This document shows positions 9,044-21,380 of a stretch of 51,580 nucleotides of DNA, piece after piece. The position numbers were made by a program, and so were the translations under genes. The stretch spans positions 1 to 51,580 of IMG/VR virus record IMGVR_UViG_3300020061_000009. The stretch is one strand, 5' to 3'. This DNA comes from a virus. Its lineage: Duplodnaviria; Caudoviricetes. The number at the start of each line of letters is the position of its first letter. Positions within the stretch are counted from its first letter, which is position 1. The notes under the pieces were generated by a model. That model saw nothing but the letters and a program-made list of their open reading frames with translations. It did no database searches and was not told the origin of the DNA.

Positions 9044-9345
9044 GGCGCCTCCACACTCAAGGTGGTCACTGCGGCTTGCACGGACAGGACGTTACCGCGA
9101 CAACTTACGTACGCAACTCATCCGTTCGGAGGATACCCGCGAACGGACAGAAAGGGGTCGCCGGCCCCGGTGACGATCCGGGCAGTCCGCCCGTATGAAA
9201 GGCGACTGAGTCCCAACGCTCTCCGGCGAGGTCTCCACAACGGACAGCAGTTACGATCAAGCCTTCGGGGCGGAGAGGCCGGAGGAAGGCTGGCAAACGC
9301 CGCATCGGGGACGTGGTAGCAAACTGCCGCCTCCGCCCCACCTTG

Positions 9346-9416
9346 AGACCGAAGCCGGACTCGAACCGGCGTATCCCGTTTTGCAGACGGGCCCCTCACC
9401 ACTCGGGCATACGGCC
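9346..9416 (-). tRNA. tRNA-Cys(GCA)
   Basis: Cloverleaf; anticodon loop CT-GCA-AA; U73. Confidence 0.9.
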
Positions 9417-9419
9417 ATG

Positions 9420-9492
9420 CGCCCTCGACTGGGATCGAACCAGTGACACCCGCCTTCGGAAGACAGTGCTCTATCCGCTGAGCTACGAGGGC
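9420..9492 (-). tRNA. tRNA-Arg(CCG)
   Basis: Cloverleaf; loop TT-CCG-AA. Confidence 0.9.
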
Positions 9493-9515
9493 ATGCCCTG
9501 TCGTACTCTGACGCA

Positions 9516-9791
9516 ATGGCTGATCTCCGCCCGCGCGTCGTCCTGGACCTTGTCCAGGACGGCACACCGTCGTACTACACCCACGGCCGCGCCGCCTGCA
9601 TCGGCTGCCGGCGGTGGGTTTGGCTCGGCAGCGAGACCGTCGGCCCCGTATCGTCCCGCTCAGTCGACCCGTTGTGCGTGGAGTGCGCGAATCTGTACAC
9701 CCCGCCAACGGCTAAACGCCTCGGCCGGCTCAACGATCACCAACGCGACGACGGTCCTCACCCAGGGGGCTGCCCGGACGAAGCCCAGTAG
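9516..9791 (+). CDS. Small CxxC/CxxC protein antisense to the tRNA array
   Basis: CIGC...CVEC; fills a tRNA-free gap. Confidence 0.55.
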   Translation: MADLRPRVVLDLVQDGTPSYYTHGRAACIGCRRWVWLGSETVGPVSSRSVDPLCVECANLYTPPTAKRLGRLNDHQRDDGPHPGGCPDEAQ

Positions 9792-9811
9792 CAATAGGCT
9801 TCGTCCGGGAG

Positions 9812-9895
9812 TGTGGGTAGAGAGATTCGAACTCCCTGAGCGCACGCGCACCGGATTTACAGTCCGGCTCACCACACCATCGGTGACGTACCCAC
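9812..9895 (-). tRNA. tRNA-Tyr(GTA), long variable arm
   Basis: CCGGA-CTGTAAA-TCCGG. Confidence 0.85.
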
Positions 9896-9937
9896 ATGGA
9901 CAACAAACTGACCGGACGTCGAGAGGGGAGATCCACA

Positions 9938-10351
9938 ATGGGTGGTCTCTACAATATGGTCATCGGCGACGGACACGAGCACGAACGCGGCCAAATCCTC
10001 ATCGCATTACTCGGTGGCGTCGACCCTGGTCGCTTCCGCGACGCCTGGATCGAACGCGGCGAAGATGGCGATCCCGTCATTGCCATCTATACACGCAACG
10101 GCGGCGGCAACCGGGAGGAGTACAAGCCGGAAATCGAGGCCATGCGCGCCAACGCCCTGTACCTCCGCGACGCAGACGACACCTTCGACTCCACGTATGC
10201 CACGTTCTACTTCGCGGCGCCGCCGGAACACCGGGATGCCCTCCGCGGGCTCGCCGTCGACCCGGTCGACACGGACGAGGTGTGGCGACTGGCCATCGCC
10301 GCGCTCGACGCCGTATCCAGGGACGGCAAGGGTCCGTCAACGTTGGGGTGA
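9938..10351 (+). CDS. Conserved phage hypothetical protein
   Basis: GRFRDAW, YTRNGGGNR and DDTFDSTYATF motifs; GGGGAG RBS. Confidence 0.75.
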   Translation: MGGLYNMVIGDGHEHERGQILIALLGGVDPGRFRDAWIERGEDGDPVIAIYTRNGGGNREEYKPEIEAMRANALYLRDADDTFDSTYATFYFAAPPEHRDALRGLAVDPVDTDEVWRLAIAALDAVSRDGKGPSTLG

Positions 10352-10417
10352 CTGACCGGAATCGAACCGGCACCACCGGAGCCACATTCCGGCGCTCTAC
10401 CGTTGAGCTACAGTCAC
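10344..10417 (-). tRNA. tRNA-His(GTG)
   Basis: Loop AT-GTG-GC; C73-CCA. Confidence 0.9.
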
Positions 10418-10419
10418 AG

Positions 10420-10492
10420 TACCCGCGGAGGGATTTGAACCCCCGGCATCCGCTGTGTAAAAGCGGCGCTCTACCAGTTGAGCTACACGGGC
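10420..10492 (-). tRNA. tRNA-Val(TAC)
   Basis: CCGCT-TTTACAC-AGCGG. Confidence 0.9.
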
Positions 10493-10595
10493 ATGACGTT
10501 GTGCTAATCTCTCGCGGTCTCCTTGGCTTGAGGGTCGGGCTGACACGGGGCGGCGGCCGCCGCTAACTCCGCCGCCCCAACCAAGACGACGATTG

Positions 10596-10670
10596 TGCGC
10601 CAGGTGGGGATCGAACCCGACCGCGTCCTGTGTATAAGACAGGCCCCACCGACCAGATGGGCTCCGGCGC
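10596..10670 (-). tRNA. tRNA-Ile(TAT), unusual UAU anticodon
   Basis: CCTGT-CTTATAC-ACAGG; A73. Confidence 0.75.
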
Positions 10671-10671
10671 A

Positions 10672-10747
10672 TGGCTCCCTCGGCTGGTCTCGAACCAACA
10701 GCCTTGCGGTTAACAGCCGCCTGCTCCGCCAATTGAGCTACGAGGGA
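10672..10747 (-). tRNA. tRNA-Asn(GTT)
   Basis: TCCCTCG acceptor; CT-GTT-AA; GCCA end. Confidence 0.92.
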
Positions 10748-10752
10748 ATGAG

Positions 10753-10828
10753 AAGCGCGGACGGGGATCGAACCCGCAAGGTGTCCCGGGTGAAAACCGG
10801 GCGGCTCTACCAATTCGCCCACCGCGCC
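10753..10828 (-). tRNA. tRNA-Glu(TTC)
   Basis: CCCGG-TTTTCAC-CCGGG. Confidence 0.85.
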
Positions 10829-10834
10829 ATGGCG

Positions 10835-10906
10835 TGCCCCGGGCTGGTCTCGAACCAACGACCTCCGTCGCGTCAGGACGGCGTTCTCCCGCTGAACTAC
10901 CAGGGC
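10835..10906 (-). tRNA. tRNA-Val(GAC)
   Basis: CCGTC-CTGACGC-GACGG. Confidence 0.88.
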
Positions 10907-10907
10907 T

Positions 10908-10986
10908 TGGGAGCGGGACCGGGATTCGAACCCGGGAACCTCTGGGTTATGAGCCCAGCGCGCTTCCATAACTGCGCCATCCCGCA
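10908..10986 (-). tRNA. tRNA-Met(CAT), initiator-like
   Basis: GGG/CCC anticodon stem; U1.U72 mismatch. Confidence 0.85.
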
Positions 10987-10988
10987 AG

Positions 10989-11060
10989 TGGGCCGCCCGG
11001 GGCTCGAACCCGGAACCGTTGGATTAAAAGTCCACTGCACCACCGTTGTGCTAGCGGCCC
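10989..11060 (-). tRNA. tRNA-Lys(TTT)
   Basis: Loop CT-TTT-AA. Confidence 0.9.
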
Positions 11061-11069
11061 ATACTGCTG

Positions 11070-11142
11070 TCTCCCGCCCGCGATTCGAACGCGGAGCCTT
11101 CGCCCTAGGAAAGCCCTGCTCTATCCGTTGAGCTAGCGGGAG
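11070..11142 (-). tRNA. tRNA-Arg(CCT)
   Basis: Loop TT-CCT-AG; weak anticodon stem. Confidence 0.8.
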
Positions 11143-11146
11143 CCGG

Positions 11147-11219
11147 TCCCCGGGGTCGGAGTCGAACCGACAGCCGTTGGCTTAGAAGGCCACCGCTCGG
11201 TCCGTCGAGCTGCCCGGGG
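11147..11219 (-). tRNA. tRNA-Arg(TCT)
   Basis: Loop CT-TCT-AA. Confidence 0.85.
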
Positions 11220-11225
11220 GGAAAT

Positions 11226-11303
11226 TGGTGCGCCGCGAAGGATTCGAACCTTCGATCTTCCGATTAAGAGTCGGCTGCTCTGGCCAGGCTGAGCTAGCGG
11301 CGC
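11226..11303 (-). tRNA. tRNA-Lys(CTT)
   Basis: Loop CT-CTT-AA; ACCA end. Confidence 0.92.
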
Positions 11304-11321
11304 GGAGGGTATGCTGTAGGC

Positions 11322-11771
11322 ATGGCGTCCGAAGTGGAGCGTGCCTGGGTTGCGGGACTCATGGATGGGGACGGTTGCGTAACACTCGCAGGCGTCGGGG
11401 GTGCATTCCGCAAGCCGTTCGTCGTGGTCGACAGCACAGACAGCGAGATCCTCGCTGAACTGCAGCGGCTGTACGGCGGAAGCTTGGTCTCCAAGAAGAA
11501 GGCCAAGGAGCACCACAGGCAGGCTTGGTCCTGGCGCGTATACGGGTCGGACAAGATCATTAGCCTACTCGGCGACGTACTGCCGTACATGCGGTGCGAC
11601 AGCAAGGTCCGGCGGGCACGAATGCTGACCACTGAGTACAAGGCGATCACACCGAGGAACGGCAAGTACACCGAGGAGATGCGAGCCCGGAAGTTCGAGT
11701 TTGAGTCGCGCTTCATGGCCATTGGTGCGGGTCGCGGGAGCCAGTGCCGACCTGCTCAAGCGGAAGGCTGA
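11322..11771 (+). CDS. Free-standing single-motif LAGLIDADG homing endonuclease
   Basis: AWVAGLMDGDG motif; LQRLYGG and LLGDVLPYM..K patterns. Confidence 0.85.
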   Translation: MASEVERAWVAGLMDGDGCVTLAGVGGAFRKPFVVVDSTDSEILAELQRLYGGSLVSKKKAKEHHRQAWSWRVYGSDKIISLLGDVLPYMRCDSKVRRARMLTTEYKAITPRNGKYTEEMRARKFEFESRFMAIGAGRGSQCRPAQAEG

Positions 11772-11844
11772 CGAGTCGAACGCCCGGGTGTCATCCCGCC
11801 TCCGGTTTTCAAGACCGGCTGGCCACCACTGGCCGGAACCTTCC
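11761..11844 (-). tRNA. tRNA-Ser(TGA) with 8/4 acceptor/T-stem fold
   Basis: GGAAGGTT/AGCCTTCC 8 bp; GGCG/CGTC 4-bp T-stem; long variable arm; G73. Confidence 0.82.
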
Positions 11845-11849
11845 ATGCG

Positions 11850-11922
11850 TGCCCCGAGCAGGATTCGAACCTGCGACCCCCTGATCCGTAATCAGGTGCG
11901 CTATCCACTGCGCCACCAAGGC
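11850..11922 (-). tRNA. tRNA-Arg(ACG)
   Basis: CCTGA-TTACGGA-TCAGG. Confidence 0.92.
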
Positions 11923-11927
11923 ATGAG

Positions 11928-12001
11928 TCCCGTCGACAGGAGTCGAACCTGCTGTCTCCTCGTTATCAGCGAGGCGCCTCTACCACGCAGGCCGCGACGG
12001 G
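11928..12001 (-). tRNA. tRNA-Ile(GAT)
   Basis: CCTCG-CTGATAA-CGAGG. Confidence 0.85.
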
Positions 12002-12006
12002 ATGAG

Positions 12007-12095
12007 CGGAAGGACCGGGATTCGAACCCGGGGACCCGGTCGCCCGGGTCTCGGTCTTAGCAGGACCGCGCCTTAGACCCCTCGGCCACCCTTCC
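12007..12095 (-). tRNA. tRNA-Ser(GCT)
   Basis: CGGTC-CTGCTAA-GACCG; long variable arm. Confidence 0.92.
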
Positions 12096-12099
12096 ATTG

Positions 12100-12175
12100 C
12101 GCCTCGTAACGGATTCGAACCGTCGACCTCCGCCGTGACAGGGCGGCGCTCTAGACCTGACTGAGCTAACGAAGC
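12100..12175 (-). tRNA. tRNA-Asp(GTC)
   Basis: CCGCC-CTGTCAC-GGCGG; G73. Confidence 0.92.
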
Positions 12176-12180
12176 ATGCG

Positions 12181-12255
12181 TACCCGGGACAGGATTCGAA
12201 CCTGCACTGCCCTGCTCCTAAGGCAGGCGCCTCCTACCATTTGGGCTACCCGGGC
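12181..12255 (-). tRNA. tRNA-Leu(TAG), short variable loop
   Basis: CCTGC-CTTAGGA-GCAGG. Confidence 0.85.
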
Positions 12256-12256
12256 A

Positions 12257-12328
12257 TGGTGGACAACCTCGGTATCGAACCGAGCAGGCGCTGTTTGCAA
12301 AACAGCACTGCACACCTGTGCGTCGCCC
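12257..12328 (-). tRNA. tRNA-Ala(TGC), aberrant D arm
   Basis: G3.U70; GCTGT-TTTGCAA-ACAGC; ACCA end. Confidence 0.78.
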
Positions 12329-12329
12329 A

Positions 12330-12405
12330 TGGAGCCAGCGGACGGGCTCGAACCGTCTACCTCGGCGTTACGAATGCCGTGCACGACCCGTCGTGCTGCG
12401 CTGGC
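12330..12405 (-). tRNA. tRNA-Thr(CGT)
   Basis: Loop TT-CGT-AA; TCCA end. Confidence 0.87.
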
Positions 12406-12406
12406 A

Positions 12407-12481
12407 TGGAGCCGGTGGCAGGGCTCGAACCCGCTCCACCGAGGTACAGGCTCGGTGCTCCACCTGTTGAGCTTCACCGGC
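12407..12481 (-). tRNA. tRNA-Thr(TGT)
   Basis: CCGAG-CCTGTAC-CTCGG; TCCA end. Confidence 0.85.
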
Positions 12482-12521
12482 AAGTGGACAAACAGCGACG
12501 GTGCGACGTATGTAACCCATC

Positions 12522-12809
12522 GTGGACATGGATCGACCGCTTCCCTGCTTCGTCTGCAGAAAGAACCTCACCCTTGCGTTCTCGGGGAAGCCCAACGGCC
12601 AGCCGGCCGACGCCGTGATGTTCCACGCCTACGGGCAGTACGGGTCAACGGCATTCGACCCGCAGGACGATAGCCAACTCCAGGTCAACGTGTGCGACGA
12701 GTGTCTCAATGAGCGCCGCGACCTGGTGTGGCACGCGCGGTACATAAGGCAACCGGCTTTGGTGGTCTTCTCCGAGGCGTGGAACCCAGACCGGGAACCG
12801 CATGCCTGA
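12522..12809 (+). CDS. Small CxxC/CxxC protein antisense to the tRNA array
   Basis: CFVC...GQYGSTAFDP...CDEC. Confidence 0.65.
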   Translation: MDMDRPLPCFVCRKNLTLAFSGKPNGQPADAVMFHAYGQYGSTAFDPQDDSQLQVNVCDECLNERRDLVWHARYIRQPALVVFSEAWNPDREPHA

Positions 12810-12930
12810 GGAGTGCTGCTGTGCTTCGTCGGCAGGGGGTGGCAACGAACTGGTCGTCCCGTACCAGCCGCCTCCGGGATCCGTTCGAGTCCCACGCCCC
12901 TTGTCGGACTGGGGCGGGGTCTTCGCGACG

Positions 12931-13003
12931 TACCCGCGGCGAGAGTCGAACTCGCAACGACCAGGCCCTCGACCTGGCGCCTCTACCGTTGGGCTACACG
13001 GGC
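12931..13003 (-). tRNA. tRNA-Leu(GAG), short variable loop
   Basis: CCAGG-TCGAGGG-CCTGG. Confidence 0.85.
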
Positions 13004-13076
13004 ATGACGGAGACGGGGCGTCTGTAGATCGTTTAAGCTGCGGTCCTAAGACAGCCGGCAGCCCCCGTCCCCTGCG

Positions 13077-13149
13077 CTCCCCGGCGAGGATTCGAACCTC
13101 GATTTCTGCGTCCAGAGCGCAGCGGCCTGCCCAGTTAGCCGACCCGGGA
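13077..13149 (-). tRNA. tRNA-Gln(CTG)
   Basis: U1-A72; CTGCG-CTCTGGA-CGCAG. Confidence 0.88.
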
Positions 13150-13183
13150 ATGCGGCCGGCGGGTTCGCGGCCCGCCGACCCCG

Positions 13184-13627
13184 TCAGCGCTGGGCGAGCG
13201 ACGCCCACGTAGGGGCTGTCGGCTTGACCCTCAGCACCATGCCCGCCTCGGCGGGGGTGCGGTCGCCCTTGCGCTGGTTGCAGCCGTCGCACGCTGCGAC
13301 GGTGTTTGTCCACGAGTTCCGGCCGCCACGCGACGCCGGCTGAACGTGGTCGACAGTCGTTGCCGGCCGCGAGCAGTAGCCGCACTGACGGTTGTCGCGG
13401 TTGAGGACGCCGGGCCGTGACCAGGCCGGCCCGGCCGTATACCGCCACTTCGTGACCACGTACTGGATGAGCCTGACGACCCGCGGCCGCGGGAAGACGC
13501 CGAAGCGTATGTCGGGCTCCGCTTCGTGCACTACGGCGACTTCGCGGCAGAGCATTCGGATGGCGTGGCGCAGGCTGACCCGGTGCAGCGGGCCGAGGTC
13601 CGCGTTGAGTACAAGGACTGCTTCCAC
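13184..13627 (-). CDS. HNH endonuclease (McrA-like)
   Basis: VLVLNA...RDNRQCGYC...TTVDHVQPASRGG...N..AAC..CN..KG. Confidence 0.92.
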   Translation of the reverse strand: MEAVLVLNADLGPLHRVSLRHAIRMLCREVAVVHEAEPDIRFGVFPRPRVVRLIQYVVTKWRYTAGPAWSRPGVLNRDNRQCGYCSRPATTVDHVQPASRGGRNSWTNTVAACDGCNQRKGDRTPAEAGMVLRVKPTAPTWASLAQR

Positions 13628-13656
13628 CGGGATTCACCTCCTGGACGTGGTGGAAG

Positions 13657-13731
13657 TGGAACGGCTACCGAGAGTCGAACTCGGCTCTTCGCCATGGCGA
13701 GGCGACGCACTACCCGATGTGCTACAGCCGC
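13657..13731 (-). tRNA. tRNA-Gly(GCC)
   Basis: TCGCC-TCGCCAT-GGCGA; TCCA end. Confidence 0.87.
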
Positions 13732-13734
13732 ATG

Positions 13735-13995
13735 CTGTTGGGAACGGGGGCCCGCCTGCCGGTGGTCAGGCTCCCGGTGGTGCTTCTGTGGTTGGGGTGC
13801 CTTTTACCAGACTTCGCGCCTTCATGGCGGCCGGCAAGTCATTCCGGAACCTCGACGATCCCACCGTCGGGGACGGTCACCCCTATGGAAGCCTCCGAAG
13901 GGTGTTGACTGGTCTGGCGCGATGCCCAGGGCCGTCACGAGGATTGTTGGCTTGCTGGAAACCACAGACAGTGCCGGCCGGCGGCAGCAGTCAAC
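13735..13995 (-). ncRNA. Putative ~260-nt structured ncRNA inside the tRNA array
   Basis: Nested stems TCTGTGGTT/AACCACAGA and CCAGAC/GTCTGG; no convincing ORF. Confidence 0.5.
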
Positions 13996-13998
13996 GAG

Positions 13999-14071
13999 AG
14001 CCTTCGGAGAGATTCGAACTCTCAGCCTCCCGCGTACCGGGCGGGCGCTCTACCTCGTGAGCTTCGAAGGC
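13999..14071 (-). tRNA. tRNA-Thr(GGT)
   Basis: CCCGC-CCGGTAC-GCGGG. Confidence 0.86.
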
Positions 14072-14078
14072 ATGGGGG

Positions 14079-14152
14079 TGCCGCGGGCGGGATTCGAACC
14101 CGCAACCTCCCGATTTTGAGTCGGGCGCCTCTACCGTTTGGGCTACCACGGC
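14079..14152 (-). tRNA. tRNA-Leu(CAA), short variable loop
   Basis: CCCGA-CTCAAAA-TCGGG. Confidence 0.88.
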
Positions 14153-14157
14153 TTGAG

Positions 14158-14232
14158 CTGGGGGCGGGGGATTCGAACCCGAGCCATGACCTGAGCCAAA
14201 ATCAGGCAGCCTGCCGATTAGCTGAGCCCCCA
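14158..14232 (-). tRNA. tRNA-Gln(TTG)
   Basis: U1-A72; CCTGA-TTTTGGC-TCAGG. Confidence 0.85.
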
Positions 14233-14237
14233 TCGAG

Positions 14238-14309
14238 AGCGGCTGACGGGAGTTGAACCCGTTACTCCACTTTGGAAGAGTGGCATGTCGCCGTGGACAC
14301 CCCAGCCGC
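14238..14309 (-). tRNA. tRNA-Gly(TCC)
   Basis: CCACT-CTTCCAA-AGTGG; U73. Confidence 0.82.
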
Positions 14310-14414
14310 ATAGTTGCCTGGCCTTGCCCGCAACCCCATCCCGGTGGGGTTGCTGCACCTACCTGGGGCTGCAAGCAGCACCCATCCCAGAGCCAGGCCG
14401 GTAGGTTTCTAGCG

Positions 14415-14487
14415 CAGACCGTGCCGGAATCGGACCGGCCTTCTCCTCGCTGAGAACGAGGCGAGATCACCACTACTCCAACGGTCC
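14415..14487 (-). tRNA. tRNA-Glu(CTC)
   Basis: CCTCG-TTCTCAG-CGAGG; T-loop variant TCCGATT. Confidence 0.85.
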
Positions 14488-14491
14488 ATGA

Positions 14492-14568
14492 TGGTGTCCT
14501 CCCCCGGATTCGAACCGAGACCCGCTGGGCTTCAACCAGCTGCGCTTACCGCGTTACGCCAAGAGGAC
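14492..14568 (-). tRNA. tRNA-Phe(GAA)
   Basis: GCTGG-TTGAAGC-CCAGC; ACCA end. Confidence 0.9.
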
Positions 14569-14573
14569 ATGAG

Positions 14574-14646
14574 TGGACCAGCGGGGATTCGAACCCCGGA
14601 CCTCCGCCCTGCCGAGGCGGCGCGCTACCAACTGCGCTACAAGCCC
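14574..14646 (-). tRNA. tRNA-Ala(GGC)
   Basis: G3.U70; CCGCC-TCGGCAG-GGCGG. Confidence 0.88.
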
Positions 14647-14651
14647 ATGCG

Positions 14652-14723
14652 TCGGGGACCGGCGAATCGAACGCCGTGTCTTCTGCTCCCAAGGCAGACG
14701 GGTTGCCGGCTCCCTCGCCCCCG
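14652..14723 (-). tRNA. tRNA-Pro(TGG)
   Basis: C1-G72; TCTGC-CTTGGGA-GCAGA. Confidence 0.83.
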
Positions 14724-14826
14724 ATTGGTGTCCCGACCGTCGGCACCTACGCGCCGACGGTCGGGTACATCTCATGCTGTCCGCTGTGGAGTTGACAAGG
14801 TACGTCCCCGAGTTCGGGGTGCTGCG

Positions 14827-14899
14827 CACGGGCGGAAGGAGTCGAACCCACAACCTGCGGTGTTGGAGACCGCTGCTCTACCAGTTGAGCTACGCCCAT
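14827..14899 (-). tRNA. tRNA-Trp(CCA), first tRNA of the array
   Basis: GCGGT-CTCCAAC-ACCGC; G73. Confidence 0.92.
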
Positions 14900-14919
14900 A
14901 TGGAGTTGTCTGTTGGTAC

Positions 14920-14957
14920 AAAAAAGCCGCCCTTGTTCGGGTTCCCGGGGGGCGGCT
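14920..14957 (-). terminator. Intrinsic terminator (attenuator) between leader ORF and tRNA array
   Basis: AGCCGCCC...GGGCGGC followed by T6. Confidence 0.8.
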
Positions 14958-14977
14958 GGTTCGCGTCTGCGTGTTCG

Positions 14978-15082
14978 CTAGTCGCGCCGGCCCCGGGCCT
15001 GCTCATCCGTGTGGTAGCTGATTCGCCCGAATGTGGGCGTGGCCGCCAGCCGCTGCGGCTTGTTGGCGGTCGACCACAACAT
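14978..15082 (-). CDS. Putative attenuator leader peptide MLWSTANKPQRLAATPTFGRISYHTDEQARGRRD
   Basis: GAGGGAG RBS 8 nt before ATG; lies between promoter and terminator; 3' end pairs with the terminator arm. Confidence 0.7.
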   Translation of the reverse strand: MLWSTANKPQRLAATPTFGRISYHTDEQARGRRD

Positions 15083-15120
15083 GTGAACTACTCCCTCATC
15101 GGTGATGCGCTTCTCCAACG

Positions 15121-15149
15121 AGAGTACGGCCGGTTGAGCGGGAGGGCAA
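15121..15149 (-). promoter_or_regulatory. Housekeeping-sigma promoter of the leader/tRNA operon
   Basis: TTGCCC-N17-TACTCT. Confidence 0.65.
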
Positions 15150-15238
15150 CGGATAATGTCCACATCGACCGGACGAGCTTCCAGGGGCCAGTCATGACGT
15201 AAGTGCGAGGAGAGTCCTCGCCTCTGCATGGAGGCATC

Positions 15239-15640
15239 ATGTCCCGAACCGACAAGGACACGCCGTGGTGGGTTGCTGCCGAGTTGTGGGAGCCGTACCA
15301 CTACAGGTGCGAGGCCGCCCGAAGCGGCTGGGCCGGAATGTCCCGCGAGCGTGACTGCGACCTGCCCGCCGAACCGATCATCAGCGCATACCGTACGCCG
15401 CGGCGAGGCTTGCGAGCGTGCCTATGGGTGCCGGTGTGGGCGCCGTTCCGTAATCAGCGCCGACACGGACAACCGCCGCCGCCGCGCTGGTTCGTCGATC
15501 ACGTCTGGAACGCGCCGAGTCGACGCGCCGTCCGGGACGATTGTCGCGAGGCTGCGAAGGAGTACCGCGGAACCGGTGAGATCGACGTGGTTCCGCCGAC
15601 CACTCAGCACCGGCACTGCGCCGCGTGGTTGTACTGGTGA
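15239..15640 (+). CDS. Arg/Trp-rich hypothetical protein (MSRTDKD...WLYW), divergent from the tRNA operon
   Basis: GGAGG RBS; followed by a hairpin. Confidence 0.75.
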   Translation: MSRTDKDTPWWVAAELWEPYHYRCEAARSGWAGMSRERDCDLPAEPIISAYRTPRRGLRACLWVPVWAPFRNQRRHGQPPPPRWFVDHVWNAPSRRAVRDDCREAAKEYRGTGEIDVVPPTTQHRHCAAWLYW

Positions 15641-15726: not shown

Positions 15727-16851
15727 TCAGGCCAGAGACCAATCGTGGCTGCCGGGTTCGTCAACCCACAAGGTGTGCTTGCCCTCGGTGGTGACGGTTA
15801 GGCCGAAGCGGTCGTGGCTGGGCCTGCCGGCGAGCTCCCATCGCACGTGGGCGTAGCTGACGGTGTCCCACAGGTCGCGGGATCCGCCTTGCTGGACGAG
15901 GTCGGTGCGGTCGGGTCGGTAGGTGCCGACGGTCCATGAGCGGTCCGGGGAGGCGAACAGGTAGTGGATGTCGTCGCTGCCCTCGTATTTGATCTCGACC
16001 CAGGTCAGGTCCGGTGCGGCGATCGCCAGCCATGCCAAGAAGGCCGGGTCTCCATAGTCGGTGGACACGACGCGGCCGGACACGCGATGGTTCGACTTTT
16101 GGAGTGCGATCGCCTCCAGGTTGGACAGGCGCCGGGGTCCGTCAGCCGATCGGGCCTCGATGAATCCTGCGAAGCCGAGCGACTTGCCTTCGGCGCAGGT
16201 TCCGTCGTCGGCGACGGTGAGCTTCATGACGCCGACGCCGACGTTCGCGAGGACGACTCCTCCGGGTATGCATAGCTTGATCCACGCCGCGGGGACACGG
16301 TTGGTACTGCACGTCGCGATGACCCGGTCGTACAGTGCGCCGTCTTCGTAGTCGAGCCCGTCGCCGACGATCAGCGTCGGCGAGAAGCCCACGGCATCGA
16401 GAGCTGTCCTTGCTGAGGTGACCAGGTCCGGGTCGATGTCGATGCTGGTCACCTGCTCGTCGCCGAGGCGGTGACACAACAGGGCGCAGTTGTAGGCGGT
16501 TCCCGTGCCGATCTCGAGGACACGGTGATGATCCTCGAGCTCCAGAGCTTCGAGCATCATCGCGGTGACGCTCGGCTGCGTAGACGAGCTCGTGGCGGTG
16601 CCTTGCGGGTTGTGGTGGGTGACGAGCGAGTCGTCGGTGTAGACAACGTCCAGCCACCGTGCGTATTGCTCCGGGTCGCTGGAGTCGATCCACTCTTGCT
16701 CGCCGCCCGGTAGCACGTGGTAGAACCTGGGCGCGAACACGGTGCGCGGCACGGCGGCGAAGGCGTCGATCCATTCGGGTTGGGTGAGTGTGCCGGCCGC
16801 GCAGAGCGTCGCGACGAGGCGTTGACGGGGCGATTCCGTGGCGAGGGTCAT
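15727..16851 (-). CDS. PIMT-like O-methyltransferase of an ATP-grasp RiPP system
   Basis: AVPR..F, TSSSTQP, VLEIGTGTAYNCALL and YDRVIATC motifs; ATGA coupling to the ligase. Confidence 0.9.
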   Translation of the reverse strand: MTLATESPRQRLVATLCAAGTLTQPEWIDAFAAVPRTVFAPRFYHVLPGGEQEWIDSSDPEQYARWLDVVYTDDSLVTHHNPQGTATSSSTQPSVTAMMLEALELEDHHRVLEIGTGTAYNCALLCHRLGDEQVTSIDIDPDLVTSARTALDAVGFSPTLIVGDGLDYEDGALYDRVIATCSTNRVPAAWIKLCIPGGVVLANVGVGVMKLTVADDGTCAEGKSLGFAGFIEARSADGPRRLSNLEAIALQKSNHRVSGRVVSTDYGDPAFLAWLAIAAPDLTWVEIKYEGSDDIHYLFASPDRSWTVGTYRPDRTDLVQQGGSRDLWDTVSYAHVRWELAGRPSHDRFGLTVTTEGKHTLWVDEPGSHDWSLA

Positions 16852-17786
16852 GCGGGGTCTCCTTGGAGGTCTGCGGCGATAGCGTCGGCGATCGGTTGTC
16901 CGGTAGCGTCCTCGACCCAGCCCCACTGCCCGTTCGGGTTGATCTCCAGGAACCACCAGACGTCGCTGGGATCAACGACGAAGTCCAGCGCACCGAAGCG
17001 CAGCCGCAACGCCGCCATGAGTGCCCGGACTCCGGCCGCGACGTCGTCAGGCACGTCGATCGGGGTGAACTTCAGGGAGGCGTAGTCGGTTCGCCAGTCG
17101 AGCCGGGCCGCCTCGGAACCAGCGTCGATACGTGCAGCGAACAGGCGCTCGCCGACGACGGTGAGGCGCACCTCGTACTGCTTGGGCACGAACTCTTGGA
17201 ACAGGTGCGCGGTTTGGTCGACGCCAGTGAGAGTGGCGCCCCGGGGCAACGCCTGGGTGTAGATGGCGTGTCCAAGCACGGTCGACGGGCTGCCGGACAG
17301 TGTTTTGTAGACGGCTCCCTCGGCGTCGCCGAGAAAGTCCCGCGCATGTCGCGGGTCGTTGGTGATGAGGGTGGAAGGCACGGCGAGGCCGCTGCCGATC
17401 GCCGCGGCGATCTGCACAGGCTTGGTCGCGGCGGCCATGTGGTGCGGGTTGTTGACCCATCGGCAGTTGATCGCCGCAAGGACACCGCCGAAGCCGTGCC
17501 GGGCCTCTCGTACTGCCCACTCAGCCTCAGCGCCTGACATGTCGCCAGTCATTCGGAACGGCGATGGCCGCCGGTAGTAGACCGCAGTGATGTCGGCCAA
17601 GTCGATCGTACGGGGGCCGGCACTGATGACGCCTCGCCAGCCGTCCTCGCCGGTCGTGGCTGACATGCGCAGTGCTGTCGGGAAGTCGCCCAGGTCTATC
17701 CGGGCGACAGGGACTCTGCCATGTAGTTGGAGGACAACTCTGTCTGCGGTGAGGTCCTGCTCCTGGCTGATAACGAGGACTGTCAA
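16848..17786 (-). CDS. ATP-grasp RiPP maturase (graspetide synthetase)
   Basis: YYRRP, PSTLITND, FQEFVPKQYEVRLTVVG, LDWR and FLEINPNGQWGW motifs. Confidence 0.93.
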   Translation of the reverse strand: MTVLVISQEQDLTADRVVLQLHGRVPVARIDLGDFPTALRMSATTGEDGWRGVISAGPRTIDLADITAVYYRRPSPFRMTGDMSGAEAEWAVREARHGFGGVLAAINCRWVNNPHHMAAATKPVQIAAAIGSGLAVPSTLITNDPRHARDFLGDAEGAVYKTLSGSPSTVLGHAIYTQALPRGATLTGVDQTAHLFQEFVPKQYEVRLTVVGERLFAARIDAGSEAARLDWRTDYASLKFTPIDVPDDVAAGVRALMAALRLRFGALDFVVDPSDVWWFLEINPNGQWGWVEDATGQPIADAIAADLQGDPA

Positions 17787-17847
17787 GGGTCCGCTCCTTT
17801 AGGGTCCGCGTGGGAGCACATGGGCCCCCACGCGGTTCGGTCTGGTG

Positions 17848-18150
17848 TCAGTCGGTGTCGCTGTCCGTCCAGCTCTGGTGGTCGGCGGTGGTGGTGTACT
17901 GGGTGGTGGAGCCGAGGTTCGGCGAGTGGACGGCCGGCTTCCCCGTCAGGTCGACGTTGATGCCCCGTTCGGCGTCGTAGCGGATGCCGGTGAGGTCCCA
18001 GGGTTCGGATGCGGTGATCGGGGCCAGGCGCGCGAAGCCGAACGACCTGCCGGACGGTGGCTTCGCTGCCTTCGGACCAGCCTGCGGCCCGCGGGTGGTG
18101 GGCAGCATTGCTTGATCCGGCGCGACCGGGTCCGCGGTGGCGATGTTCAT
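17848..18150 (-). CDS. Graspetide precursor peptide
   Basis: SFG...YDAERGIN leader; Thr/Ser/Asp core STTQYTTTADHQSWTDSDTD. Confidence 0.85.
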   Translation of the reverse strand: MNIATADPVAPDQAMLPTTRGPQAGPKAAKPPSGRSFGFARLAPITASEPWDLTGIRYDAERGINVDLTGKPAVHSPNLGSTTQYTTTADHQSWTDSDTD

Positions 18151-19189: not shown

Positions 19190-19600
19190 TTCTCATGTAT
19201 GCGGGATTCGAACCCGCAATCTTCGGTTTTACAGACCGATGGGCTGCCATTGCCCAAATACGGTGAGTGTTGCCGCCACATTGTCACACCAGCGACGTTT
19301 AAGGGCACCTCTTAGATCAAAGTGAGCGCGCTCTGCCATTGAGCTAGGGGAGCACGTGGAGCTCCCCGCGGGACTCGAACCCGCAACCTCGCGCAACGAT
19401 GGTGTCCGGGCGATCTGGTGGTGATCGACGGCAATGCTGAGTCTGGGACAAGAGCCTAAGTCTGCCGGCACCCGCTGCCTCTACCAGTTGGGCTACCGGG
19501 GCATGTGGAGCCCCGGGCCGGGATCGAACCTGCACCTTGGCGGGTGGTGTTGACGGCTGAGTTTGAGCCTGAACTTGTGTCCTTTACAAAGGGTGATTCA
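19190..19600 (-). ncRNA. Large structured RNA with two circularly permuted tRNA-like domains and a terminal tRNA-Tyr(GTA)-like domain
   Basis: T-arm > closed acceptor > D-arm order at 19470-19545 and 19326-19394; long-range stems; cloverleaf at 19192-19267. Confidence 0.8.
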
Positions 19601-19623: not shown

Positions 19624-20355
19624 TTACCCGAAGACGTAGGAGAAGATCTTCGCGCCGATCACCTGGTCCGTGACGAGTTCCATGTTGGCCTGCTCCCGGG
19701 CCACCTTGACCGCCTCGGCGAGCGTGACCACGCGGGCCTTGATTTCGGAGATCCGCGCCCGCGGCAGTGCCCCCGAATACTTGACGGTCGTCCAGTAGCC
19801 CGCGAGCACATCCTCGGAGTACATCTCGACCTGTGCGGGATGCCGGTCGGTGGCCTCTGCTCTCACGTGATTGCGGGGCACCTTCTTCGACCTGGTCGTG
19901 CTCGCCGGCGCCGTCGCCCAAGCCTCAGCGACGTCGTCATACGTCCACGCCTCCGACGGGTCTAGGGCCGGCAGCTTGCTGACGAAGGTGTGCAGGTCGA
20001 TGAGTTGCTTCTCCAGGAACAACAAGTACGTGACGGGCACGTCGTAGGCGAGCACGTCGCCGCCCACGATGATGTTGGCCTTCGCGATTCCATTCGCGAC
20101 GTCCTTTGTCAGAGTGACGTCCATCAGCCGCGTGAGTGCGGTCACGACCTCCTTGATGATGTCGTCGGACCGCAACTGGACCCGTGTCGACTCAGGCGGC
20201 AGTTGCTCGCCCTCGTCGTCCTTCGGCCGGTACGTGCGAGCAAGGCCCGACAGGAGCGGACCCTTCTGCAGCTGGTGGTGCGCGTCGGTGAGCGCCGCGT
20301 GCGCGCGGGACTTGACGCCCTTCTCGACGGCGACGATCTTATTGAGCTGACCCAT
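19624..20355 (-). CDS. Conserved coiled-coil hypothetical protein (recalled as DUF7873-like, unverified)
   Basis: LN.IVAVEKGVK, RTYRPKDDEGEQLPPE, DVPVTYLLFLEKQL and AVKVAREQAN motifs. Confidence 0.85.
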   Translation of the reverse strand: MGQLNKIVAVEKGVKSRAHAALTDAHHQLQKGPLLSGLARTYRPKDDEGEQLPPESTRVQLRSDDIIKEVVTALTRLMDVTLTKDVANGIAKANIIVGGDVLAYDVPVTYLLFLEKQLIDLHTFVSKLPALDPSEAWTYDDVAEAWATAPASTTRSKKVPRNHVRAEATDRHPAQVEMYSEDVLAGYWTTVKYSGALPRARISEIKARVVTLAEAVKVAREQANMELVTDQVIGAKIFSYVFG

Positions 20356-20365
20356 GACGGATACC

Positions 20366-21154
20366 CTAGGCAGGCGCAGAGCCGTCCTCTATGGGTTCGT
20401 GTTCGCCGTCGGCTGAATCGCCGAGCTCCGAAAGGTCAACGACGCGGATGTTGCGTGCCAGCCTGGTCCCGTCGCAGTCGAGGCCGACCACCCGGACCGG
20501 GCCGTGGCCCATGTCGGCGACGGTCTCGTACTGGCAGTGATAGTGGCCATGCCAGGCCCACGACGGGCGTACGGCGTCGGCGACCCTGCGTAGTTGGAGG
20601 CGTTGACTGTCGGCTCGGATCAGGTCGAGCGGTGGCCACAGGTGTGCGGACTCGGCAAGGCCCGGGATGTCGACGCCGGTTGGGCAGTCGTGGGACACGA
20701 GCACGTCAACCGGCCCGCCGGCGATTGCTTGCTCGACCTGCTCGTCGGTGATCTCCTCCTCCCTCCACCATGAGACGCCCGGTACCCGCCACTTGCGGTC
20801 GATCGAATAGGCGCCACCCAACGCCAGGAACGAAACGTCGCCCCACGTCCAGCGGAAGCCGCGGGGAAGGTGCCAGATCCGGTCGGTCAGCTGTCGCCGC
20901 CCGTCCTCACGGATGGGATACCGCAGCAAGGTCGGGAAGCACTCGTGGTTTCCGTCCACGAACCACAGCTCCAGCCCGGCCTTGCGGAGTGCCGCGTCGA
21001 CCCCCTTCACGAACCCCGGCGGGAATTCATAGCCGAAGTCGCCCAAGTGGACAATGATGTCCGCGTTCAACGAGCTGGCGTGCCTGATCGCCCTTCGCGC
21101 CCAGTCCCGGTTGCAATGCCAGTCGCCAGCGAAGGCGATCCGCTTAGGCTCCAT
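20366..21154 (-). CDS. Calcineurin-like metallophosphoesterase
   Basis: GDWH, GDFG, DGNHE, SHDCP and HGHYH motifs. Confidence 0.92.
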   Translation of the reverse strand: MEPKRIAFAGDWHCNRDWARRAIRHASSLNADIIVHLGDFGYEFPPGFVKGVDAALRKAGLELWFVDGNHECFPTLLRYPIREDGRRQLTDRIWHLPRGFRWTWGDVSFLALGGAYSIDRKWRVPGVSWWREEEITDEQVEQAIAGGPVDVLVSHDCPTGVDIPGLAESAHLWPPLDLIRADSQRLQLRRVADAVRPSWAWHGHYHCQYETVADMGHGPVRVVGLDCDGTRLARNIRVVDLSELGDSADGEHEPIEDGSAPA

Positions 21155-21377
21155 CGGAGTGCCCTCCGGCAGGCCGGGCCCGGTGGCACCAGCACACGCA
21201 TTTGATGTCGCAGACCTTGCAGTGGGACCGGTGCTTCGTGGATCCGTCGTACCGCTGCGCTTGGATCTGGCAGTATGCGTGTCCGTCGCCGCCATGCAGG
21301 CAGCCGGTAGATAGGTACCAGTGCCTCCCGCCGAGCAGCGTGACGAACCGCAGAACGTGGTACATCAACCTGGCCAT
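21144..21377 (-). CDS. Small Cys/His-rich protein
   Basis: YLSTGCLHG..H.YC...CKVC...C.C.CH. Confidence 0.7.
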   Translation of the reverse strand: MARLMYHVLRFVTLLGGRHWYLSTGCLHGGDGHAYCQIQAQRYDGSTKHRSHCKVCDIKCVCWCHRARPAGGHSDGA

Positions 21378-21380
21378 AAG

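What the first reader, a model, noticed from the sequence alone, without database searches (positions are those of the whole stretch)
14920..15149. Codon-sampler leader peptide and attenuator controlling a 35-tRNA operon
Seen on the - strand, in order: promoter TTGCCC-N17-TACTCT, RBS GAGGGAG, a 34-codon ORF (MLWSTANKPQRLAATPTFGRISYHTDEQARGRRD), an intrinsic terminator, then the first tRNA. The ORF uses 18 of 20 amino acids (no Cys or Val), and 25 of its first 27 codons are distinct (manual count). Its last codons (CCCGGGGCCGGC, 14986-14997) can pair with the terminator 5' arm (GCCGCCCCCCGGG), and an upstream GCGGCTGG can pair with CCAGCCGC. Established: this is the geometry of trp/his-type attenuators, which use runs of a single amino acid. 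Inference: a ribosome reaching the stop masks the antiterminator and transcription terminates, whereas stalling at almost any codon (tRNA cleavage by anticodon nucleases, starvation, antibiotics) allows read-through into a full replacement tRNA set. I know of no described pan-codon attenuator for tRNA arrays.
Basis: partly seen in the sequence, partly recalled or inferred. Interest (0 to 1): 0.92.

Follow-up and report, generated by a model that had tools for sequence, protein, structure and literature searches.

The report
Translation-sensing leader before phage tRNA array
A soil phage places a tiny, unusually codon-diverse reading frame and a transcription stop signal between the promoter and the first of its 35 tRNA genes, an arrangement that probably lets the phage make more tRNAs when translation falters.

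Summary
The anatomy is real. On the - strand lie a promoter-like site, a strong Shine-Dalgarno, a 34-codon ORF (15082-14978), one of only two hairpin+T-run terminators on that strand of this 51.6-kb virus record, and 20 nt later tRNA-Trp, the first of 35 tRNAs.

For an attenuator:
- The promoter is shared with the one homologous array found (L003), where it sits 38 nt before tRNA-Trp with no ORF or terminator.
- A natural ~95% variant in other soil runs keeps the frame through +15 and +3 nt insertions. It changes 4 codons non-synonymously and 1 synonymously, keeps both terminator arms and the T-run, and still pairs the ORF end with the terminator 5' arm.
- Folding with a modelled ribosome gives termination only when the ribosome sits on the last ~10 codons.
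- An unrelated 42%-GC phage (L008) has the same design: a 42-codon ORF using all 20 amino acids, with 0 of 477 shuffles matching its switch.

Against:
- 15 of 300 shuffles match the window's switch.
- The variant shows no equilibrium switch.
- L003 lacks the element, and there is no expression data.

Verdict: probably a ribosome-dependent attenuator of the whiB7-uORF kind, with a new cargo. The pan-codon sensing is inferred.

The parts
15121..15149 (-). Promoter-like site: -35 TTGCCC (15149-15144), 17-nt spacer containing CCGCTCAAC, -10 TACTCT (15126-15121)
   Evidence: Read. It is one of 2 TTGNNN-N16-18-TANNNT matches outside tRNA genes on the - strand of 9000-15300. It shares 20 of 29 positions with the L003 site at 9342-9370, which lies 38 nt before that phage's tRNA-Trp. 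The pattern occurs once in the window even with 3 mismatches allowed, and in 0 of 100 shuffles. The tool's stricter consensus scan did not call it.
15091..15097 (-). Shine-Dalgarno GAGGGAG, 8 nt before the ATG
   Evidence: Read. Only 7.3% of 151 small ORFs (28-42 codons) in the record have an SD-like motif at that distance.
14978..15082 (-). Leader ORF: 34 codons plus TAG
   Evidence: GC3 0.91, 28 distinct codons, 18 amino acids. In a natural variant the frame is kept through +15 and +3 nt insertions. No family or homologue was found.
14986..14999 (-). Antiterminator 5' strand: the last codons of the ORF
   Evidence: It pairs with 14940-14956 in the fold of the nascent transcript. In the nascent-transcript ensemble, 5 of the 8 terminator-arm bases pair with the last 10 codons plus stop at P >= 0.83. 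In the variant 5 of 8 do so at P >= 0.98.
14963..14985 (-). Small hairpin spanning the stop codon, enclosed by the antiterminator helix
   Evidence: Folds. No difference is listed here in the variant.
14920..14957 (-). Intrinsic terminator: arms 14957-14950 and 14932-14925, loop 14949-14933, T6 14925-14920
   Evidence: Forms in the MFE fold; hairpin alone -18.4 kcal/mol. It is one of 2 hairpin+T terminators on the - strand of the record. In the variant the arms and T-run are unchanged while the loop carries 2 substitutions and 2 one-base deletions.
14826..14899 (-). tRNA-Trp(cca), first gene of the array, 20 nt after the T-run
   Evidence: ARAGORN. A variant contig bridges leader, terminator and tRNA-Trp (X4 record 9, 14769-15133).
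9155..14899 (-). Array of 35 tRNA genes with an HNH endonuclease gene (13627-13184) and several strong hairpins in its gaps
   Evidence: Gene order is homologous to the 36-tRNA array of L003.

Best explanation
The 230-bp stretch is a ribosome-dependent transcription attenuator at the head of the phage's tRNA array.

Proposed mechanism:
- Transcription starts at the promoter around 15149-15121.
- The 34-codon leader is translated while RNA polymerase moves on.
- If the ribosome runs to the end of the ORF, it covers 14999-14986. The terminator (14957-14925 plus the U-run) then folds, and most transcripts stop 20 nt before tRNA-Trp.
- If the ribosome is absent, slow, or stalled within roughly the first 24 codons, the ORF's 3' end pairs with the terminator's 5' arm. 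The terminator cannot form, and polymerase reads into the tRNA genes.
- Because the leader uses nearly every amino acid once or twice, shortage of many different charged tRNAs could slow it. tRNA output would then rise when translation capacity falls, which is a feedback on tRNA supply.

Shown by computation: the parts, their rarity, conservation of the frame and the helices in a natural variant, the alternative folds, and a second independent example.

Inferred: that the ORF is translated, that the terminator works in the unknown host, that read-through depends on ribosome position, and that codon diversity is the sensed feature.
For: 1. Position. The terminator lies between the only recognisable promoter and the first tRNA, with 20 nt to spare. 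That promoter is homologous to the one that directly precedes tRNA-Trp in L003.

2. Terminator rarity. It is one of 2 hairpin+T terminators among 6 T5+ runs on this strand of the 51.6-kb record.

3. Natural variant in runs X3, X4 and X5 (one study, different from the source's).
- Both indels inside the ORF are in frame (+15, +3), giving a 40-codon ORF with the same stop and the same 20-nt distance to the arm.
- Of 9 indels listed outside the ORF, 8 are single bases.
- The 6 substitutions in the ORF fall at codon positions 1, 2, 2, 2, 3, 3. That is 4 non-synonymous codons and 1 synonymous, so the frame is conserved but the peptide is not.
- By contrast, 6 of 9 listed substitutions in the neighbouring + gene are at third positions.
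- Terminator arms and T-run are unchanged; 4 changes fall in the loop.

4. Antiterminator.
- In the nascent-transcript ensemble the 5' arm pairs with the ORF end in the window (ddG -7.9) and in the variant (ddG -9.75), despite a 3-nt insertion in one strand and a 1-nt deletion in the other.
- Modelled P(terminator) is 0.94-0.995 with the P-site at codons 25-35.
- It is mostly 0.0-0.5 (range 0.002-0.88) at codons 1-24.
- It is 0.36 in free RNA.
- The result holds across four footprint sizes.

5. Codon diversity. 28 of 34 distinct codons and 18 amino acids; the variant has 31 of 40 and 19. Null frequencies are 0.2-2.8% depending on the null model.

6. Second example, L008 (42% GC, unrelated).
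- ORF 9231-9359 has 42 codons, all 20 amino acids and 37 distinct codons (null 0.56% and 0.14%).
- A terminator lies 27 nt after the stop and 8 nt before tRNA-Gln.
- The ORF end AGCCCCUU is complementary to AAGGGGCU of the terminator arm.
- The switch profile is the same, and 0 of 477 shuffles reach it.

7. Specificity. Of the hairpin-preceded tRNA blocks with a small upstream ORF that I modelled (7, 1), none shows the clean ribosome-position switch or unusual diversity.
Against: - Window switch. 15 of 300 dinucleotide shuffles of ORF plus spacer reach it, and 44 of 300 reach its 5'-arm sequestration energy. G+C-rich sequence finds partners easily.
- Variant. At equilibrium the terminator dominates whatever the ribosome position (free P 0.99, most positions 0.65-1.0). 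Only the kinetic (nascent-transcript) form of the antiterminator is conserved.
- L003. The closest array relative found has the promoter but no leader or terminator, so the element is lineage-specific and no covariation test is possible.
- No homologue of peptide or DNA among:
  - 50,697 phage records;
  - 100 fetched loci;
  - the protein databases;
  - viral, metagenome or genome contigs.
- Frame argument. It rests on two indels. Chance is about 1/9 if lengths are random, and about 1/81 using the local indel spectrum.
- Diversity statistics are post hoc.
- Promoter. It fails the tool's sigma-70 consensus scan, and the transcription start is unknown.
- Rarity. The design is rare: 2 of 166 tRNA blocks in 26 loci.
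- There are no expression, Term-seq or ribosome data, and the host is unknown.
Confidence: 0.5

Rival explanations
1. A stand-alone mini-gene. Promoter, SD, a fast-evolving 34-40 aa phage peptide (for example an accessory or anti-defence factor) and its own terminator happen to lie next to the array. The tRNAs are made by leaky read-through or from promoters that the consensus does not recognise.
For: - It is a complete transcription unit with a strong SD, an ATG start and GC3 of 0.91-0.93.
- In-frame indels with many amino-acid changes also fit a rapidly diversifying protein.
- Small ORFs between tRNA genes are common and are annotated in other phages:
  - Pantoea phage AAS21 and Cellulophaga phage phi17:2;
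  - three ORF-terminator-tRNA modules in L104.
- Actinobacterial promoters often lack a -35 element (my recollection, no call), so the scan can miss them.
Against: - No homologue or family exists at any sensitivity tried.
- The substitution pattern shows no purifying selection on the peptide.
- The promoter is the homologue of a tRNA-Trp promoter.
- Only 20 nt separate the T-run from the tRNA.
- This reading does not explain the ORF-end to terminator-arm pairing being kept in the variant, nor the parallel design in L008.
Confidence: 0.2
2. A constitutive, partly efficient terminator, acting as an insulator or dosage valve or awaiting a phage antitermination factor. It sets or times tRNA expression, and the ORF is incidental or only keeps the leader RNA free of Rho.
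For: - The terminator is canonical and rare in this genome.
- 14 of 166 tRNA blocks surveyed have a hairpin+T-run within 45 nt upstream, and most show no switch.
- In the variant the terminator is predicted to form regardless of ribosome position at equilibrium.
Against: - Frame conservation through two insertions and the retained SD and ATG.
- The pairing of the ORF end with the terminator arm in three sequences.
- The unusual codon diversity in both examples.
Confidence: 0.17
3. The hairpin is an RNA processing or stability element of the tRNA precursor, like the other strong inter-tRNA hairpins. The ORF and the alternative pairing are chance products of G+C-rich sequence.
For: - Many gaps in the array hold strong hairpins, for example a 15-bp stem between Trp and Pro and another after Tyr.
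- 5% of shuffles reproduce the switch.
- About 130 places in the record reach 28 distinct codons in some frame.
Against: - None of the other inter-tRNA hairpins in the gaps folded is followed by a T run of 5 or more; only 6 such runs exist on this strand.
- SD plus ATG plus GC3 of 0.91 together are unmatched: only 1 of the 151 first-start small ORFs of 28-42 codons (a set that does not include the leader itself) has GC3 >= 0.88 with an SD, and it starts with TTG.
- The indels in the ORF are in frame.
Confidence: 0.08

Closest known systems
whiB7 5' leader of mycobacteria (uORF-mediated transcription attenuation)
   Same: It has a uORF followed by a rho-independent terminator. Efficient translation gives termination; translation stress gives an antiterminator and read-through. 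[quoted passage not shown] Knock-down of tRNAs and tRNA synthetases activates it. I read the abstract and the passages of PMC10274678 shown. It is an actinobacterial setting, like the probable host range of this 65%-GC phage.
   Different: The cargo there is a transcription factor, not tRNA genes. That uORF is enriched in alanine and is described as longer. The leader here has no enrichment, only near-maximal diversity. There is no sequence similarity. This element is phage-borne and lineage-specific.
trp/his/leu/thr-type leader-peptide attenuators of amino-acid operons
   Same: Order of parts: promoter, SD, short ORF, alternative helices, intrinsic terminator, regulated genes. A ribosome at the end of the ORF masks the antiterminator strand.
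   Different: There is no run of one regulatory codon (the most frequent codons occur 3 times). There is no clear 1:2 'pause' helix. The cargo is RNA genes, not biosynthetic enzymes. The description of the classical systems is from textbook knowledge and the listing.
Antibiotic-sensing regulatory uORFs (for example toiL of E. coli, bmrB-bmrCD, mef/mel leaders)
   Same: A short ORF acts as a general sensor of ribosome stalling and controls downstream transcription. I saw only titles and abstracts (PMC12121999, PMC4191407, PMC4335068).
   Different: Those control resistance or toxin genes and respond to drugs. Some act through Rho or through translation rather than an intrinsic terminator.
T-box riboswitches
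   Same: A leader RNA with a terminator/antiterminator choice that reports on tRNA charging.
   Different: T-boxes bind the uncharged tRNA directly and need no ORF. No Rfam family matched 14880-15260 at E <= 1.
Small ORFs, promoters and terminators interspersed in phage tRNA regions (T5-like and Cellulophaga phages)
   Same: Small ORF, then hairpin+T-run, then tRNA modules exist elsewhere (L104 three times, L009, L110/L117, L112). Tiny ORFs are annotated between tRNAs in Pantoea phage AAS21.
   Different: Those ORFs are not unusually diverse (P 0.24-0.89), and the terminators of the cases modelled show no ribosome-position switch.

Membership tests
Ribosome-dependent (leader-peptide) transcription attenuator | Short ORF with a ribosome-binding site in the 5' leader, downstream of the promoter | tested here: met
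   SD GAGGGAG lies 8 nt before the ATG. The 34-codon ORF begins about 32 nt after the inferred start. The promoter is homologous to the L003 tRNA-Trp promoter.
Ribosome-dependent (leader-peptide) transcription attenuator | Intrinsic terminator between the ORF and the regulated genes, with no promoter in between | tested here: met
   The hairpin (-18.4 kcal/mol) plus U6 ends 20 nt before tRNA-Trp. No TTGNNN-N16-18-TANNNT site lies downstream within the array until 9116. Promoters lacking a -35 element cannot be excluded.
Ribosome-dependent (leader-peptide) transcription attenuator | Antiterminator helix mutually exclusive with the terminator and masked by a ribosome at the end of the ORF | tested here: inconclusive
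   The helix is present and behaves as expected in the model, and it is kept in the variant's nascent transcript. However, 15 of 300 shuffles do as well, and the variant has no equilibrium switch. In L008 the feature is clearly met, with 0 of 477 shuffles.
Ribosome-dependent (leader-peptide) transcription attenuator | Conservation of the ORF's frame and position rather than of the peptide | tested here: met
   The variant carries +15 and +3 nt in frame, the same stop, and the same 20-nt distance to the arm. It has 4 non-synonymous and 1 synonymous codon changes. This rests on one variant lineage only.
Ribosome-dependent (leader-peptide) transcription attenuator | Read-through depends on translation of the leader | not testable with these tools
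   No RNA holder was listed among the sequencing runs, and the host is unknown.
trp/his-type amino-acid attenuator | Run or cluster of codons for the amino acid made by the operon | tested here: not met
   28 of 34 codons are distinct, and the commonest codons (GCC, CGG) occur 3 times and are scattered.
whiB7-type broad translation-stress uORF attenuator | Diverse uORF, variable between relatives, followed by a rho-independent terminator, with the logic efficient translation = termination | tested here: met
   The architecture and modelled logic match the description read in PMC10274678. This is a resemblance in how it works, not homology.
whiB7-type broad translation-stress uORF attenuator | Alanine enrichment of the uORF and a whiB7 gene downstream | tested here: not met
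   There are 4 Ala in 34 residues, read from the peptide. tRNA genes lie downstream.
T-box / other Rfam leader | Match to a curated covariance model | tested here: not met
   0 matches at E <= 1 in 14880-15260 on both strands.
Graspetide precursor (considered because an ATP-grasp RiPP cluster lies upstream) | Match to TIGR04186 (ATP-grasp-modified RiPP precursor) | tested here: not met
   The leader peptide matches no NCBIfam family. The cluster's precursor is the ORF 18150-17848 (26.3 bits, cut-off 25).

The most novel reading that the evidence does not exclude
Some phages gate their tRNA arrays with a 'codon-sampler' leader. This is a short ORF selected to contain nearly every amino acid or codon once, so that depletion of almost any host tRNA (by anticodon nucleases, tRNA-cleaving toxins, host shut-off or starvation) stalls the lead ribosome, opens an antiterminator and switches on the replacement tRNA set. 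It would be a self-correcting tRNA-supply circuit that arose independently in a 65%-GC and a 42%-GC phage.
Probability: 0.3. Interest if true: 0.9.

Novelty: new variant of a known kind. Interest (0 to 1): 0.78.

Why it matters
Phage tRNA arrays are now read as counter-measures to tRNA-targeting defences and to loss of host tRNAs. How their expression is controlled is barely studied. My five literature searches found no paper linking a tRNA array to a leader peptide or attenuator.

A translation-sensing attenuator in front of an array would be a direct feedback from decoding capacity to tRNA supply. That is the logic of amino-acid operon attenuation applied to the adaptor molecules themselves.

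It would also give a compact, portable sensor of general elongation stress. It would offer a testable reason for an otherwise odd property, a leader ORF that maximises codon diversity instead of repeating one codon. Two independent examples make the idea testable with simple reporters.

Tried and rejected
Searches that found nothing
- Homologues of the leader:
  - tblastn of the peptide against phages gave one E = 6 hit.
  - The word-indexed protein search found none among proteins of 30-57 aa.
  - phmmer against 1.84 billion representatives gave 2 hits, both to a repeat in long proteins of 1140 and 1790 aa with no shared context; I judged them not meaningful.
  - Pfam, NCBIfam and PHROGs gave no family.
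  - The leader DNA found nothing in L003, L008 or L009 records or in 100 loci.
- Relatives by neighbouring proteins: the methyltransferase and the 133-aa + gene found none in viral contigs. The methyltransferase hits in Streptomyces and Saccharomonospora phages are not syntenic.
- Promoter pattern: it matched only L003's contig in viral contigs and nothing in metagenome contigs.
- A 36-nt leader stretch found nothing in viral contigs or genome contigs.
- L008 leader: no protein homologue, no blastn match in phages, and only its own contig by its terminator sequence.
- Rfam: no match.

Other points
- MAFFT did not align the two promoters. The similarity was seen by eye and then tested by pattern.
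- Graspetide-precursor idea for the ORF: rejected.
- Sequencing runs: no RNA holder is listed, so nothing can be said on expression.
- Parts of the stretch without contig cover in X3-X6 carry no meaning.
- 50 further differences were not shown. Up to 5 substitutions of X4's contig, 1 of X3's and 11 of X5's are unlisted, and some may lie in 15085-15177. Conservation of the SD, the -10 and the -35 in the variant is therefore not established.
- Supplementary files of papers were not consulted.
Full report
What the window is

The window is a whole virus record of 51,580 bp at about 65% G+C. It has no close relative among 50,697 phage records or the plasmid collection.

Most genes lie on the - strand. 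Among them are a D5-type primase-helicase, a RecD-like helicase, a cytosine methylase, a polynucleotide kinase-phosphatase, a metallophosphatase and a DUF7873 protein.

ARAGORN finds 35 tRNA genes on the - strand from 14899 to 9155, and one more at 19262-19193.

Directly upstream of the finding on the same strand is a complete graspetide cluster:
- precursor 18150-17848;
- ATP-grasp maturase 17786-16848;
- PIMT-like methyltransferase 16956-15727.

After that comes one + strand gene (15239-15640, no family), which diverges from the leader.

- TTGCCC-N17-TACTCT at 15149-15121;
- GAGGGAG 8 nt before ATG 15082;
- a 34-codon ORF ending at TAG 14980-14978;
- a hairpin at 14957-14925 with a U6 run;
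- tRNA-Trp 20 nt later.

The tool's own consensus scan lists neither the promoter nor the terminator. The hexamers are too weak for its rule, and the 17-nt loop is too long for it.

Is it more than chance?

- T runs of five or more occur 6 times on the - strand of the whole record, and only two follow a stable hairpin. One of those is this site.
- A relaxed actinobacterial promoter pattern (TTGNNN-N16-18-TANNNT) outside tRNA genes occurs twice on the - strand between 9000 and 15300: here, and at 9116, beyond the last tRNA.
- The ORF has GC3 of 0.91.
- Among stop-free 34-codon windows in all six frames, 2.1% have at least 28 distinct codons, 0.5% have at least 18 amino acids, and 0.19% have both.
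- Among windows with GC3 of at least 0.85, 0.05% reach 28 codons.
- None of 5368 windows from 16 confident genes does.
- Independent draws from the genes' codon usage give 0.6% for codons and 2.8% for amino acids.
- These figures are post hoc. About 130 places in the record reach 28 codons in some frame.

Relatives

The leader peptide and the leader DNA have no detectable homologue anywhere I could look.

Using DUF7873 as an anchor I found one clearly homologous array, L003, on a 98.9-kb viral contig. It has 36 tRNAs, and its gene order in the second half is identical to the window's.

Its tRNA-Trp is preceded at 38 nt by TTGCAC-N17-TAGGAT. The spacer of that site shares CCGCTCAAC and, in all, 20 of 29 positions with the window's site. 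The pattern is unique in the window even with three mismatches, and occurs in 0 of 100 shuffles.

L003 has six such promoters along its array, and no ORF or terminator before Trp. So the promoter is ancestral to tRNA-Trp, and the ORF-terminator cassette is either an insertion in the window's lineage or a loss in L003's.

A natural variant

Contigs from three soil runs of one study, different from the source's study, cover the leader at roughly 95% identity. One contig bridges 14769-15133, that is, from the Trp-Pro spacer through tRNA-Trp and the terminator into the ORF and 5' leader.

Differences inside the ORF:
- +15 nt behind 15047 and +3 nt behind 14986, both in frame;
- substitutions at 15055, 15051, 15039, 15033, 15032 and 14999.

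Working by hand from the table, and confirmed by rebuilding the variant in a script, these give:
- Q10K, R11Q, T15M, T17N and a silent change in codon 28;
- a 40-codon ORF with the same stop, still 20 nt before the terminator arm;
- 31 distinct codons, 19 amino acids (only Cys absent) and GC3 of 0.93.

Of the 9 indels listed outside the ORF, 8 are single bases.

Both terminator arms and the T-run are unchanged. The loop has two substitutions and two single-base deletions.

In the neighbouring + gene, 6 of 9 listed substitutions are at third positions, as expected of a protein under purifying selection. In the leader only 2 of 6 are.

So the frame and the structure are kept, and the peptide sequence is not.

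Some differences were not listed by the tool. I therefore cannot say whether the SD and promoter boxes are identical in the variant.

Folding

The full leader folds with the terminator in the MFE structure (z = -3.3).

Prefixes that end before the 3' arm fold into a helix between 14999-14986 (the last codons) and 14940-14956 (the 5' arm and part of the loop). That helix encloses a small hairpin over the stop codon.

Modelled probability that the terminator forms, with a 30-nt ribosome footprint made unpairable:

| Ribosome P-site position | P(terminator) |
|---|---|
| Codons 25-35 | 0.94-0.995 |
| Codons 1-24 | mostly 0.0-0.5, range 0.002-0.88 |
| No ribosome (free RNA) | 0.36 |

Four footprint sizes give the same picture.

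Control for the window: 15 of 300 dinucleotide shuffles of ORF plus spacer reach the same switch, and 44 of 300 reach the same sequestration energy. The structure alone is therefore only suggestive.

In the variant the terminator hairpin is stronger (-22.4 against -18.4 kcal/mol), and at equilibrium it forms almost regardless of ribosome position.

In the nascent-transcript ensemble, however, the 5' arm is still paired with the ORF's last ten codons. The sequestration energy is -9.75 kcal/mol in the variant against -7.9 in the window.

A second, independent example

While surveying other arrays I found the same design in L008, a 56.8-kb viral contig at 42% G+C. L085 and L086 carry identical sequence.

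- The ORF 9231-9359 has 42 codons, all 20 amino acids and 37 distinct codons. In its own six-frame null these occur at 0.56% and 0.14%.
- Its stop lies 27 nt before a strong terminator.
- The terminator's T-run starts 8 nt before tRNA-Gln.
- The ORF end AGCCCCUU, which overlaps the stop codon, is an exact complement of AAGGGGCU in the terminator's 5' arm.
- The nascent-transcript fold again shows an antiterminator enclosing a small hairpin.
- The modelled terminator probability is 1.0 with the ribosome on codons 36-43, and mostly 0.05-0.5 on codons 6-35 (range 0.05-0.98, with codons 20-23 at 0.87-0.98).
- 0 of 477 shuffles reach this switch.

Survey

I examined 166 tRNA blocks, each a tRNA after a gap of at least 100 nt, in 26 loci from viral contigs, metagenome contigs and 15 named phage records.
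- 14 of the 166 have a hairpin plus T-run within 45 nt upstream.
- Apart from the window and L008 9231, the small ORFs before those hairpins are ordinary in diversity (P 0.24-0.89).
- The eight such cases I modelled show no clean ribosome-position switch.
- L003 and L101 start with a promoter alone.

The two unusual properties, diversity and switch, therefore occur together in the same two loci and in none of the others. The design is also rare.

Interpretation

The best reading is a ribosome-dependent transcription attenuator. Efficient translation of the leader to its end lets the terminator form. An absent, slow or stalled ribosome in about the first two thirds of the ORF lets the ORF's 3' end capture the terminator's 5' arm, and polymerase runs on into the tRNA genes.

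That would raise tRNA output when decoding is impaired.

The diversity of the leader fits a sensor that is not tuned to one amino acid. It is present in the window, in its variant (where the inserted codons add Val and three previously unused codons) and in L008.

All of this is inference from sequence. Translation, termination and their coupling are untested, and the host is unknown.

The main rivals are:
- a fast-evolving mini-gene with its own terminator;
- a constitutive dosage terminator;
- a processing hairpin with a chance ORF.

What is known

The mechanism is that of leader-peptide attenuation.

The nearest described system is the mycobacterial whiB7 leader. There a variable uORF precedes a rho-independent terminator. 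Efficient translation terminates, translation stress antiterminates, and knock-down of tRNAs or tRNA synthetases induces. [quoted passage not shown] I read the abstract and passages of PMC10274678.

Antibiotic-sensing uORFs are a further parallel. I saw only abstracts.

No Rfam family matches the leader.

Five literature searches found no paper that links a tRNA array or tRNA operon with a leader peptide or attenuator. The library covers open-access papers and bioRxiv only, and older work on phage T5 tRNA regions, which I recall, is not in it.

I therefore file this as a new variant of a known kind: a known switch with a new cargo and a distinctive leader composition.

Noticed in passing
window 15727-18150 (- strand): A complete graspetide (ATP-grasp RiPP) gene cluster sits in a phage. 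The precursor 18150-17848 matches TIGR04186 (26.3 bits, cut-off 25). The ATP-grasp maturase 17786-16848 matches TIGR04187 (395 bits). The PIMT-like O-methyltransferase 16956-15727 matches TIGR04188 (330 bits, below its 380 cut-off). This is the gene set of aspartimide-forming graspetides, an identification I recall rather than tested. Related methyltransferases occur alone in small Streptomyces phages.
   Followed up: partly
window 19624-22310 (- strand); L003, L008, L009, L111, L112, L113: DUF7873 (window 20355-19624) lies next to or inside tRNA arrays in every array-bearing relative examined: L003, L008, L009, Gordonia phages Phendrix and Keelan, and Arthrobacter phage Mimi. In the window it follows a polynucleotide kinase-phosphatase (22310-21381) and a metallophosphatase (21295-20366). 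This suggests a tRNA repair or maintenance module.
   Followed up: partly
L008 9200-9420 (also L085, L086, L114): A second 'diverse leader ORF, then antiterminator/terminator, then tRNA' element occurs in an unrelated 42%-GC viral contig. Its 42 codons use all 20 amino acids, and 0 of 477 shuffles match its switch.
   Followed up: yes
window 14733-14768 and 9774-9810 (- strand), and other gaps of the array: Very strong perfect hairpins of 13-15 bp without T-runs lie between tRNA genes, for example between Trp and Pro and just after Tyr. They may be processing or I-shaped termination signals.
   Followed up: no
window 13184-13627 (- strand): An HNH endonuclease gene (Pfam HNH_5, 1.3e-13) sits inside the tRNA array between tRNA-Gly(gcc) and tRNA-Gln(ctg).
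   Followed up: no
window 15239-15640 (+ strand): A 133-aa ORF with no family in Pfam, NCBIfam or PHROGs diverges from the leader. 6 of 9 listed substitutions in the soil variant are at third codon positions, so it is probably a real gene. In the variant contigs 182 nt (15295-15478) are replaced by 176 other letters.
   Followed up: partly
L003 7675, 7869, 9342, 12530, 13081, 16235: Six near-identical promoters, TTGCAy-N17-TAnnaT, are spread through the 36-tRNA array of the related phage. The window's array has only one recognisable site.
   Followed up: partly
L104 (Cellulophaga phage phi17:2_18) about 4700-4835, 5628-5809, 7569-7378: Three repeated modules of small ORF, hairpin+T-run and tRNA occur here. 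Two of the ORFs begin with the same residues (LLYVCQ) and share the same upstream 16 nt. They have ordinary codon diversity and no predicted switch.
   Followed up: partly
window 19193-19262 (- strand): A lone 70-nt second tRNA-Tyr(gta) lies 4.3 kb upstream of the array, between DUF7873 and the graspetide cluster. It is separated from the array by what looks like inserted cargo.
   Followed up: no
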